Shown: positions 35,603 through 36,850 of the stretch, piece after piece
How positions within the stretch are numbered: position 1 is the stretch's first letter
How the letters are laid out: each line of letters starts with the position of its first letter
NCBI GenBank assembly: GCA_002725995.1
Contig: PBRQ01000028.1
Span: forward strand, 743 to 64,742
From: Gammaproteobacteria bacterium
GTDB lineage: Bacteria > Pseudomonadota > Gammaproteobacteria > Pseudomonadales > Azotimanducaceae
DNA: 64,000 nt
Direction: 5' to 3'
Program-made: the position numbers and the translations under genes
Notes under the pieces: generated by a model
What the model saw: only the letters and a program-made list of their open reading frames with translations
Databases searched by the model: none
Told to the model about the DNA's origin: nothing

Positions 35603-36850
35603 CTACCAGAGATCGTACTTTTGAACCTCGGCTCTGCCAACAACCATATGATGTACTTCATCCGGTCCATCAGCAAAACGCAGGTGGCGTACATCCGTAT
35701 ACATTTCTGCAAGGGGTGTCCATTGTGAGACACCAGCCGCGCCATGCATCTGAATCGCCTGGTCAATAATTTTACATACCTTGTCCGGTACGATTGCCTT
35801 GACCCCACTGACGTAGACCCTGGCTTCCTTATTGCCGAGAACGTCCATGGCTTTTGCAGCCTGCAGGACCATCAGGCGCATGCCATCAATTTCAAGGCGA
35901 GCCCGTGAAATGACTTCAAGGTTCTTGCCCAGTTTGGCAATTGGCTTGCCAAAGGCGACTCGACTTCCGGCGCGTCTGACCATGAGCTCCAGTGCTTTTT
36001 CAGCTTTTCCAATGGAACGCATACAGTGATGAATTCGGCCGGGGCCCAGGCGAACCTGTGAAATCTCAAAACCGCGGCCTTCTCCCAGCAGAATATTCTC
36101 TTTAGGTACTCGCACATTGTCGAACTTAATGTGCATGTGCCCGCGCGGTGCATGGTCTTTTCCAAAAACTTGCATGGCCTCAAGTATTTCAACTCCCGGG
36201 GTATCGATGGGCACGAGTATCTGCGATTGCTGCCTGCTGGAGGGAGCATCAGGACTTGTTTTAACCATTGTAATCATGATTTTACAGCGTGGGTCCGCTG
36301 CGCCGGAAATGTAAAACTTTTCCCCATTAATTACCCACTCGTCACCATCGGGGACCGCCTCGGTGCTAACATTTTTGGCGTCAGACGAGGGTATGCCAGG
36401 TTCCGTCATGGCATAGGCCGAACGGATTTCACCGTTCAGTAGTGGCTTAAGCCATTGCTCTTTTTGTTCCGGCGTACCTACCCGCTCCAGCACTTCCATG
36501 TTACCTGTATCCGGTGCACTACAGTTCAGCGTTTCCGACGCCAGGTTGGACTTGCCAAGTTCAGCAGCAATGTAGGCGTAGTCTAGATTAGTCAGACCTT
36601 CACCCATTTCGGAATCCGGTAGGAAGAAATTCCACAAGCCTGATTTTTTGGCCTTCGCTTTCGCACCGTCGAGTAATTCCAACTGACGCGGATGCCAGGA
36701 CCATCGATCTTCCTTTTCTCTGTCGAGTTCATAAAATTCCTCGGTAATGGGGTCTACATTGTCCTTAATGTGCTTTATTACTGCATCCATTAAGGGTTGC
36801 GCTTTCTCTGACATTGCCAGAGTAAATAGATCGCTTTCTAAATCAGGCAT
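35603..36850 (-). CDS. Acyl-CoA dehydrogenase, ACAD10/ACAD11 (FadE2)-like subtype
   Basis: [73 protein letters not shown] and [11 protein letters not shown] are strings I recognise as characteristic of the ACAD10/11-type ACAD domain. Confidence 0.85.
   Translation of the reverse strand: [415 protein letters not shown]

What the first reader, a model, noticed from the sequence alone, without database searches (positions are those of the whole stretch)
35603..36850. ACAD10/11-type acyl-CoA dehydrogenase plus two APH kinases: a split 4-hydroxyacyl-CoA phosphorylation/elimination module
The 415-aa ACAD carries strings I recognise from the ACAD10/ACAD11 (FadE2-like) clade: [58 protein letters not shown] and [10 protein letters not shown]. 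They differ from those of ordinary beta-oxidation ACADs. Established knowledge: mammalian ACAD10/11 fuse an APH kinase domain to this ACAD domain and catabolise 4-hydroxy acids by phosphorylating 4-hydroxyacyl-CoA and eliminating phosphate to give an enoyl-CoA. P. putida LvaA/B (kinase), LvaC (ACAD), LvaD (SDR) and LvaE (CoA ligase) do the same for levulinate. This island supplies all the part types as separate genes: 2 APH kinases, this ACAD, 8 SDRs and 2 CoA-transferases, with a FadD at 58861. The inference is that the island processes gamma-hydroxy or gamma-oxo acyl-CoA intermediates, possibly generated by the putative hydratases and SDRs.
Basis: partly seen in the sequence, partly recalled or inferred. 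Interest (0 to 1): 0.65.

Follow-up and report, generated by a model that had tools for sequence, protein, structure and literature searches.

The report
Lone ACAD10/11-type dehydrogenase; kinases belong elsewhere
The gene is a genuine bacterial relative of the mammalian ACAD10/11 enzymes that remove phosphate from 4-phospho-acyl-CoA, but the two kinases in the window are not its partners, because each is tied to its own phosphate-lyase gene.

Summary
The ORF at 35603-36850 (-) encodes a 415-aa acyl-CoA dehydrogenase carrying every quoted motif. It matches the ACAD domain of mouse ACAD11 at E 1e-112 (380 bits, 47% identity), against 131 bits for the best ordinary ACAD. It keeps the catalytic Asp and the Arg...HCMR phosphate-binding residues, and it groups with ACAD11 in a tree (100/99).

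The "split module" reading is not supported.
- The kinases lie 15 and 31 kb away.
- Both are only remotely like the ACAD11 kinase domain (40-47 bits) and lack its two modelled CoA-contact arginines. They group with M. tuberculosis Rv3168.
- Each is translationally coupled to a gene of the Rv3169 / 25-phosphosteroid-lyase family.
- That coupling recurs in six of six distant homologues checked, five of them with the lyase-family gene, and none has an ACAD nearby.

In relatives the ACAD orthologue, where linked at all, sits beside a different ~350-aa kinase ("C2"). C2 scores 139-145 bits to the ACAD11 kinase domain and is absent from the window. Linkage is about 12-16% seen from either gene, so an unlinked C2-type kinase elsewhere in this genome is the likeliest partner. 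The gene is an ordinary new member of a known family.

The parts
35603..36850 (-). ACAD10/ACAD11/LvaC-type acyl-CoA dehydrogenase-fold enzyme (415 aa), the subject of the finding
   Evidence: Pfam ACAD N/M/C domains. Mouse ACAD11 structure 8v3u at E 1.4e-112, 380 bits, versus 131 bits for the best canonical ACAD. 47.5% identity over 413 aa. [12 protein letters not shown] and ADGPDEVH kept. Clade with ACAD11 at 100/99.
37044..37862 (-). SDR (PRK08267 family), 193 nt upstream on the same strand; a possible but unproven co-transcribed neighbour
   Evidence: Pfam and NCBIfam. This neighbour is kept only in same-species contigs L001-L006 and in none of the genome loci from other species.
34984..35484 (-). 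SnoaL_4 (NTF2-like) protein, 118 nt downstream on the same strand
   Evidence: Pfam. Conserved next to the ACAD only within the species. In some relatives the partner kinase occupies this position.
19434..20396 (+). APH kinase B (320 aa), Rv3168-like; assigned to a lyase cassette, not to the ACAD
   Evidence: Best PDB hit 3ats at 67 bits; ACAD11 kinase domain only 40-44 bits. 28-31% identity to the C2 kinases. Lacks both modelled CoA-contact Arg. The cassette is conserved in homologues of 53-66% identity with no ACAD nearby.
18964..19437 (+). Small partner ORF overlapping the kinase B start by 4 nt
   Evidence: ORF list. Orthologues of 144-148 aa (40% identity) directly precede the kinase in all four homologue contexts. 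No Pfam or NCBIfam family.
16994..18130 (+). Rv3169-family / 25-phosphosteroid-lyase homologue, first gene of the kinase B cassette; SnoaL_2 at 18360-18836 lies between, and SDR 15828-16640 is divergent
   Evidence: PDB 9fzn 25-phosphosteroid lyase at E 3.8e-30. NCBIfam Rv3169_fam at 269 bits, cut-off 150. Orthologues of 45-49% identity hold the same position in L087 and L088.
2956..4431 (-). APH kinase A (491 aa, with an N-terminal extension of about 200 aa); assigned to a lyase pair, not to the ACAD
   Evidence: APH domain at residues 215-425. ACAD11 kinase domain only 40-44 bits. 23-29% identity to C2. Homologues in Steroidobacter denitrificans, Emcibacter sp. and a Proteobacteria MAG are each followed, with a 4-nt overlap, by a DUF7064 gene, with no ACAD within 7 kb.
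1943..2953 (-). DUF7064 protein (336 aa) abutting the kinase A stop; a distant member of the Rv3169/phosphate-lyase family
   Evidence: Pfam DUF7064 at E 7e-14. NCBIfam Rv3169_fam at E 9e-10, below cut-off. Profile-profile match to the 25-PSL-like group at 97% probability, E 9e-11. No direct PDB hit.
4434..7201 (-). Two family-III CoA-transferase genes upstream of kinase A
   Evidence: Pfam CoA_transf_3. They are not conserved beside kinase A homologues elsewhere.
58861..60519 (+).
   Evidence: Pfam. It lies 22 kb from the ACAD, beyond MoxR/transglutaminase and Opp-type ABC genes. There is no evidence of linkage.

Best explanation
The gene encodes a stand-alone bacterial orthologue of the ACAD domain of mammalian ACAD10/11 and of P. 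putida LvaC. By analogy with those enzymes (inferred, not assayed), it binds FAD and takes a 4-phospho-acyl-CoA. The conserved Asp removes the C2 proton, the flavin transiently takes a hydride, and phosphate leaves from C4, held by the Arg...HCMR cluster. The electrons return to the substrate, giving a 2-trans-enoyl-CoA for beta-oxidation with no external acceptor. Its kinase partner is most probably an unlinked ~350-aa APH of the ACAD10/11 type (here called C2) elsewhere in the genome. It is not either kinase in the window. Those two kinases each form a separate ATP-dependent dehydration unit with a gene of the Rv3169 / 25-phosphosteroid-lyase family. Kinase B sits in a conserved SDR | lyase - SnoaL_2 - small subunit - kinase cassette. 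Kinase A sits in a conserved, translationally coupled kinase - DUF7064 pair.
For: ACAD family:
- 8v3u (mouse ACAD11) scores E 1.4e-112, 380 bits; the best canonical ACAD scores 131 bits.
- Identity to the ACAD11 ACAD domain is 47.5%.
- The equivalents of R626, R631, H634-C-M-R637 and D753, named as defining in PMC12440821, are all present.
- In the tree it forms a clade with ACAD11 (100/99), apart from nine canonical ACAD paralogues.

Partner kinase:
- Orthologues of 77-89% identity were found in 80 species genomes.
- The commonest conserved neighbour is the C2 APH. It is present in 9 loci and lies directly downstream on the same strand in five of them.
- C2 scores 139-145 bits to the ACAD11 kinase domain, 170-171 to 3dxp and 177-193 to 9o56.
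- C2 keeps both modelled CoA-contact arginines.
- Seen from the kinase side, 13 of 80 metagenome loci hold the ACAD orthologue, and in 9 it lies 13-28 nt upstream. Linkage is therefore about 12-16% from either gene. That fits near 1:1 co-occurrence with the two genes usually unlinked.

Window kinases belong elsewhere.

Mechanism: PMC11342911 section 13.
Against: No activity was measured. The substrate chain length and the source of the 4-hydroxy acids are unknown. The kinase tree has few taxa and long branches (86/94 support). The CoA-contact arginines come from molecular-dynamics modelling in the paper, not from a substrate-bound structure.
Confidence: 0.72

Rival explanations
1. Kinase A and/or kinase B phosphorylate 4-hydroxyacyl-CoAs made in the island by the SDRs and CoA-transferases. 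The ACAD then eliminates the phosphate, giving a dispersed Lva-like module.
For: All the part types are in one 60-kb stretch. Both kinases fall in the broad APH group that holds the ACAD11 kinase domain and 3dxp among their PDB hits. They keep the catalytic HGD..N and DWE motifs. Kinase A abuts a CoA-transferase gene. Kinase B has a small coupled partner, reminiscent of LvaA/LvaB. LvaA itself is only 29% identical to the ACAD10/11 kinase domains, so low identity alone does not exclude the role.
Against: The genes are 15 and 31 kb apart on separate units. Scores to the ACAD11 kinase domain are 40-44 bits, against 139-145 for C2. Neither modelled CoA-contact Arg is kept. Each kinase already has a coupled phosphate-lyase-family partner, and the cassette recurs in 6 of 6 distant contexts with no ACAD within 7 kb. 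No A- or B-type kinase occurs near the ACAD in the 80 genome loci. The distributions differ sharply: the top 120 ACAD hits are all at least 86% identical, while only about 125 homologues of each kinase were found, falling to 70% or 42% identity after the nearest few hits.
Confidence: 0.08
2. The enzyme is a conventional, kinase-independent acyl-CoA dehydrogenase that merely belongs to the FadE2/ACAD10/11 sequence clade, or it acts on some other polar acyl-CoA.
For: No partner kinase is within 64 kb. About 85% of orthologues have no kinase within 10 kb. Neighbours elsewhere are general CoA-metabolism genes such as thiolase, methylmalonyl-CoA mutase and SDRs. PMC12440821 notes that older lysate work suggested ACAD11 can take unsubstituted longer-chain substrates.
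Against: The phosphate-binding Arg and HCMR motif, which have no role in a hydrophobic ACAD pocket, are invariant in all 17 clade members examined. Purified ACAD10/11 showed no activity on classical substrates (PMC12440821). Bacterial orthologues from B. pseudomallei replaced the ACAD10 domains functionally (PMC11342911). The linkage frequency is symmetrical from the kinase side.
Confidence: 0.1

Closest known systems
ACAD domain of mammalian ACAD11/ACAD10 (PDB 8v3u, 8v3v, 2wbi) and P. putida LvaC
   Same: Same three-domain ACAD fold. 47.5% identity to mouse ACAD11 over the whole domain. Catalytic Asp in ADGPDEVH, and R...GR..HCMR phosphate-binding helix.
   Different: It is a free-standing gene with no fused or adjacent kinase, no HAD domain, and no lva-type operon (no LvaA/B/D/E arrangement). 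LvaC itself could not be fetched for direct comparison.
Bacterial ACAD + ACAD10/11-type kinase gene pairs (for example the B. pseudomallei orthologues used in PMC11342911, and the pairs in loci L015, L025, L037, L051, L077)
   Same: The window ACAD is 78-87% identical to the ACADs of the pairs in those loci and falls in the same tight clade.
   Different: In the window, a SnoaL_4 gene occupies the position downstream of the ACAD instead of the kinase.
25-hydroxysteroid kinase / 25-phosphosteroid lyase ATP-dependent dehydration of Sterolibacterium denitrificans (PMC8449060; PDB 9fzn), and M. tuberculosis Rv3168 / Rv3169
   Same: This is what the two window kinases resemble: an APH kinase plus an Rv3169/25-PSL-family protein. 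The logic is the same, phosphorylate an alcohol and then eliminate phosphate.
   Different: It has nothing to do with the ACAD. The substrates here are unknown. My BLAST of that fusion was not significant (E 0.13).

Membership tests
ACAD10/ACAD11/LvaC clade of ACAD-fold phosphate-eliminating enzymes | Three-domain acyl-CoA dehydrogenase architecture | tested here: met
   Pfam Acyl-CoA_dh_N, _M and _1, all above cut-off.
ACAD10/ACAD11/LvaC clade of ACAD-fold phosphate-eliminating enzymes | Closer to ACAD10/11 than to any canonical ACAD | tested here: met
   380 bits to ACAD11 versus 131 bits or less to SCAD, MCAD and others. Clade with ACAD11 at 100/99.
ACAD10/ACAD11/LvaC clade of ACAD-fold phosphate-eliminating enzymes | Catalytic aspartate (mouse ACAD11 D753) instead of the canonical glutamate | tested here: met
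   [10 protein letters not shown] aligns with [10 protein letters not shown]. The 8v3v mutant differs at exactly this Asp (paper).
ACAD10/ACAD11/LvaC clade of ACAD-fold phosphate-eliminating enzymes | Phosphate-binding R626 plus the HCMR motif (H634, R637) | tested here: met
   [12 protein letters not shown] is identical to mouse ACAD11 and absent from all 10 other ACAD paralogues checked, including the nearest sister pair.
ACAD10/ACAD11/LvaC clade of ACAD-fold phosphate-eliminating enzymes | Fused or adjacent ACAD10/11-type (LvaA-like) kinase | tested here: not met
   No such kinase in the window. One is adjacent in only about 12-16% of relatives. The rest of the genome could not be searched.
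ACAD10/ACAD11/LvaC clade of ACAD-fold phosphate-eliminating enzymes | Converts 4-phospho-acyl-CoA to 2-enoyl-CoA plus phosphate without an external electron acceptor | not testable with these tools
   Needs an enzyme assay.
ACAD10/11-type / LvaA-type 4-hydroxyacyl-CoA kinase (tested for window kinases A and B) | APH fold with catalytic HGD..N and DWE motifs | tested here: met
   Pfam APH; alignment.
ACAD10/11-type / LvaA-type 4-hydroxyacyl-CoA kinase (tested for window kinases A and B) | Groups with the ACAD10/11 kinase domain rather than with other APH subfamilies | tested here: not met
   40-44 bits to the ACAD11 kinase domain, against 139-145 for C2. The tree places A and B with Rv3168, across an 86/94 branch. 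LvaA itself was not available.
ACAD10/11-type / LvaA-type 4-hydroxyacyl-CoA kinase (tested for window kinases A and B) | Arginines modelled to hold the CoA moiety (ACAD11 R86, R176) | tested here: not met
   Kinase A has D and S at these positions; kinase B has N and Q. ACAD11, 3dxp, 9o56, C2 and the L083 kinase keep both.
ACAD10/11-type / LvaA-type 4-hydroxyacyl-CoA kinase (tested for window kinases A and B) | Gene linkage to an ACAD10/11-type ACAD | tested here: not met
   15 and 31 kb away in the window. 0 of 7 homologue contexts hold an ACAD.
Kinase / phosphate-lyase ATP-dependent dehydratase pairs (25-HSK/25-PSL; Rv3168/Rv3169) | APH kinase coupled to an Rv3169/25-PSL-family gene | tested here: met
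   Kinase B is in a cassette with 16994-18130 (9fzn at E 4e-30; Rv3169_fam at 269 bits). Kinase A abuts DUF7064 gene 1943-2953 (hhalign 97% to the PSL group). The pairing is conserved elsewhere.
Kinase / phosphate-lyase ATP-dependent dehydratase pairs (25-HSK/25-PSL; Rv3168/Rv3169) | Kinase orthologous to 25-hydroxysteroid kinase | tested here: inconclusive
   Kinase B hits 9fsg ('aminoglycoside phosphotransferase-like protein') at only 45 bits. I did not establish what 9fsg is.

The most novel reading that the evidence does not exclude
This genome has no ACAD10/11-type kinase at all. The highly conserved stand-alone ACAD instead receives 4-phospho-acyl-CoA from one of the Rv3168-type kinases, for example kinase A, which abuts the CoA-transferase genes. 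One kinase would then feed two different phosphate-eliminating enzymes, a 25-PSL-family lyase and an ACAD.
Probability: 0.07. Interest if true: 0.55.

Novelty: new member of a known kind. Interest (0 to 1): 0.25.

Why it matters
ACAD10/11/LvaC chemistry was worked out only in 2017-2025. This orthologue is very abundant and unusually conserved in marine Proteobacteria: the top 120 of more than 8000 database hits are all at least 86% identical. That points to routine 4-hydroxy-acid catabolism in the ocean. For annotation, two lessons follow. An APH kinase in the same island as an ACAD10/11-type gene is not evidence of an Lva-like module. APH kinases also pair with a second, unrelated class of phosphate-eliminating enzyme, the Rv3169/25-PSL family. 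The two systems can sit side by side without being connected.

Tried and rejected
The own genome could not be searched for a C2-type kinase or further ACAD paralogues.
- The promoter/terminator scan around the ACAD gave no more sites than shuffles, so the operon structure with the SDR and SnoaL_4 genes is undecided.
- SDR enrichment next to ACAD orthologues is weak (6.5% of adjacent slots versus 3.3% overall), and the window's SDR is not an orthologue of the recurrent ones. I dropped the idea of an LvaD-like conserved partner.
- The DUF7064 protein and a 7-sequence profile of it found nothing in the PDB by HMMER. Only profile-profile comparison linked it to the 25-PSL group.
- Public runs holding the locus are nearly all labelled marine or seawater metagenomes, and none is identifiable as an isolate. 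Read-based linkage of a kinase to this genome was therefore not attempted.
- LvaA, LvaB and LvaC sequences could not be obtained with the tools, so comparison with the lva proteins rests on the published identities.
- BLAST of the small ORF against the kinase A N-terminus was not significant (E 0.13).
- No structure prediction was run. A solved homologue at 47% identity made it unnecessary.

Full report
**Observation**

Pfam finds the N-terminal, middle and C-terminal acyl-CoA dehydrogenase domains. No NCBIfam equivalog reaches its cut-off.

I annotated about 55 ORFs across the window with Pfam. The stated inventory is correct: two APH kinases, eight SDRs, two family-III CoA-transferases and an AMP-binding ligase at 58861. 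The distances matter, however.
- The ACAD is 15 kb from kinase B (19434-20396, +).
- It is 31 kb from kinase A (2956-4431, -).
- It is 22 kb from the ligase, with unrelated genes between (MoxR, transglutaminase, Opp-type ABC).

tblastn finds no further ACAD or APH in the window.

**What the ACAD is**

Against all PDB sequences, the best hits are these:
- mouse ACAD11 (8v3u): E 1.4e-112, 380 bits;
- a putative acyl-CoA dehydrogenase of unstated organism (4hr3): 376 bits;
- human ACAD11 (2wbi): 364 bits;
- the best ordinary ACAD: 131 bits.

Identity to the mouse ACAD11 ACAD domain is 47.5% over 413 residues. For scale, PMC11342911 gives 62% and 56% identity between LvaC and the ACAD10 and ACAD11 domains.

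PMC12440821 names the residues that set this clade apart. They are the catalytic D753, the conserved R631, and the phosphate-binding R626, H634 and R637 of the "HCMR" motif. The window protein reads [12 protein letters not shown] and ADGPDEVH, which keeps all of them. The 8v3v mutant structure differs from 8v3u at exactly that Asp.

I built a maximum-likelihood tree with 16 orthologues, mouse ACAD11 and ten other ACAD paralogues taken from the fetched loci. The protein falls in a clade with ACAD11 (100/99). None of the paralogues has the HCMR motif. The family call is therefore sound.

**How it most likely works**

This part is inferred from the characterised family, not shown here. FAD is bound. 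The Asp deprotonates C2 and a hydride passes transiently to the flavin. Phosphate then leaves C4, and the electrons return to the substrate. The product is 2-trans-enoyl-CoA, formed without an external acceptor (PMC11342911 section 13).

**Which kinase goes with this ACAD**

A scan of species-representative genomes returned 80 loci with orthologues of 77-89% identity. They come from Gamma- and Alphaproteobacteria, with a few MAGs labelled Verrucomicrobiota or Acidobacteriota. I called ORFs in all loci and clustered them.

Synteny is highly variable. The window's SDR and SnoaL_4 neighbours recur only in the six same-species contigs. The most recurrent specific neighbours are two orthogroups, each in 9 loci: a set of ~350-aa APH kinases, here called C2, and an SDR group (C3). 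C2 members are 58-83% identical to one another. C2 lies directly downstream on the same strand in L015, L025, L037, L051 and L077, and one gene away in L080.

C2 is clearly the ACAD10/11-type kinase.
- It scores 139-145 bits to the ACAD11 kinase domain, 170-171 to 3dxp and 177-193 to 9o56.
- It keeps the two arginines that PMC12440821 models as holding the CoA moiety.

From the kinase side, 13 of 80 metagenome loci carrying C2-type kinases also hold the ACAD orthologue. In 9 of them it lies 13-28 nt upstream. Linkage of about 12-16% from both directions suggests that the two genes usually co-occur but are usually unlinked. The likeliest partner of the window ACAD is therefore a C2-type kinase elsewhere in the genome.

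**What the two window kinases are**

Both are catalytically plausible APH kinases, with HGD..N and DWE present.
- They score only 40-47 bits to the ACAD11 kinase domain and 3dxp.
- They are 23-31% identical to C2.
- They lack both CoA-contact arginines.
- They group with M. tuberculosis Rv3168 (3ats; the identification of 3ats as Rv3168 is from my memory), across an 86/94 branch from the ACAD11 / 3dxp / 9o56 / C2 group.
- None reaches any NCBIfam cut-off for antibiotic, thiamine or homoserine kinases.

Their gene context is decisive.

*Kinase B.* It is the last gene of a plus-strand run:
- 16994-18130: 25-phosphosteroid lyase 9fzn at E 3.8e-30; NCBIfam Rv3169 family at 269 bits against a cut-off of 150;
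- SnoaL_2 at 18360-18836;
- a small ORF at 18964-19437 that overlaps the kinase start by 4 nt;
- a divergent SDR at 15828-16640.

Homologues of kinase B at 66%, 58% and 53% identity include one from an Acidimicrobiales MAG. They show the same five-gene arrangement, with orthologous lyase (45-49%), SnoaL_2 (58%), small protein (40%) and SDR (61%). None has an ACAD within 7 kb. A fourth context, cut by a contig end, keeps the small gene and the kinase.

*Kinase A.* It abuts a CoA-transferase gene upstream and a DUF7064 gene downstream (1943-2953). Its homologues in Steroidobacter denitrificans, Emcibacter sp. and a Proteobacteria MAG (36-49% identity) are each followed, with a 4-nt overlap, by a 341-342-aa DUF7064 gene. 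None has an ACAD or a CoA-transferase nearby.

The DUF7064 group has no direct PDB hit. Its profile nevertheless matches the 25-PSL-like group at 97% probability, E 9e-11.

Each kinase thus has its own conserved phosphate-lyase-family partner. The known model is the 25-hydroxysteroid kinase / phosphate-lyase ATP-dependent dehydration of Sterolibacterium (PMC8449060). Earlier notes of this scan reached the same view of the lyase paralogues, and I re-tested that claim here.

**Distribution**

For the ACAD, all 8000 scored candidates passed E 1e-30, and the listed top 120 are all at least 86% identical. For each kinase only about 125 homologues were found. Identity falls to 70% for kinase B and to 42% for kinase A after the nearest few hits. 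The ACAD is a widespread, strongly constrained gene. The kinases are rarer accessory genes, so the three are not inherited as a module.

**Verdict**

The gene is a new member of a known, recently characterised family, and the "split module" is a coincidence of neighbourhood in a gene-dense catabolic region.

The residual novel reading is that this genome lacks a C2 kinase and the ACAD borrows one of the Rv3168-type kinases. It cannot be excluded without the whole genome, and I put it at about 7%.

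Noticed in passing
window 15828-20396; L087 4070-7966; L088 4051-7945: A five-gene cassette is conserved between this gammaproteobacterium, an Acidimicrobiales MAG and other MAGs, at 40-61% protein identity. 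It comprises a divergent SDR, an Rv3169/25-PSL-like lyase, SnoaL_2, a family-less protein of about 145 aa, and an APH kinase whose start overlaps that small gene by 4 nt.
   Followed up: partly
window 1943-4431; L090 7001-9429; L091 7001-9258; L092 7001-9534: The kinase A / DUF7064 pair is translationally coupled (4-nt overlap in all three homologue loci). Kinase A homologues occur in bacteria I recall as steroid degraders (Steroidobacter denitrificans, Croceicoccus estronivorus, a Sterolibacterium MAG), which hints at sterol- or isoprenoid-like alcohol substrates.
   Followed up: partly
L007-L086 (ACAD orthologues): The ACAD is 77-89% identical across Gamma- and Alphaproteobacteria. Isolates include Hyphomonas sp. 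CY54-11-8 at 80% and Candidatus Litorirhabdus singularis at 78%. MAGs labelled Verrucomicrobiota and Acidobacteriota also carry it, with no class-level signal in the tree. This means either extreme constraint or frequent transfer. Several assemblies carry two copies (L075 and L083; L012 and L071; L030 and L073; L035 and L044).
   Followed up: no
L019 8600-9829 (-); L026 2453-3619 (+): A sister ACAD subfamily branches next to the ACAD10/11 clade (100/100). It lacks the HCMR phosphate-binding motif, and L019's copy keeps DGPDE. In L019 it sits divergently beside an ACAD10/11-type copy.
   Followed up: no
L083 7874-8932 (-): A second, divergent ACAD10/11-type kinase (352 aa, 29-33% identical to C2, keeps both CoA-contact arginines) lies about 1 kb upstream of, and divergent from, the second ACAD copy of genome CP121329.1.
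   Followed up: no
window 41364-42427: A Sulfotransfer_3 gene is split into two overlapping plus-strand ORFs (profile positions 1-148 and 148-215). The same split is called in all the same-species contigs that cover this gene, so it is either a fixed frameshift or a two-part gene.
   Followed up: no
window 47313-47837: A 174-aa ORF matches only positions 63-188 of the 1021-position AcrB/ACR_tran profile. It is apparently a fragment of an RND transporter gene.
   Followed up: no
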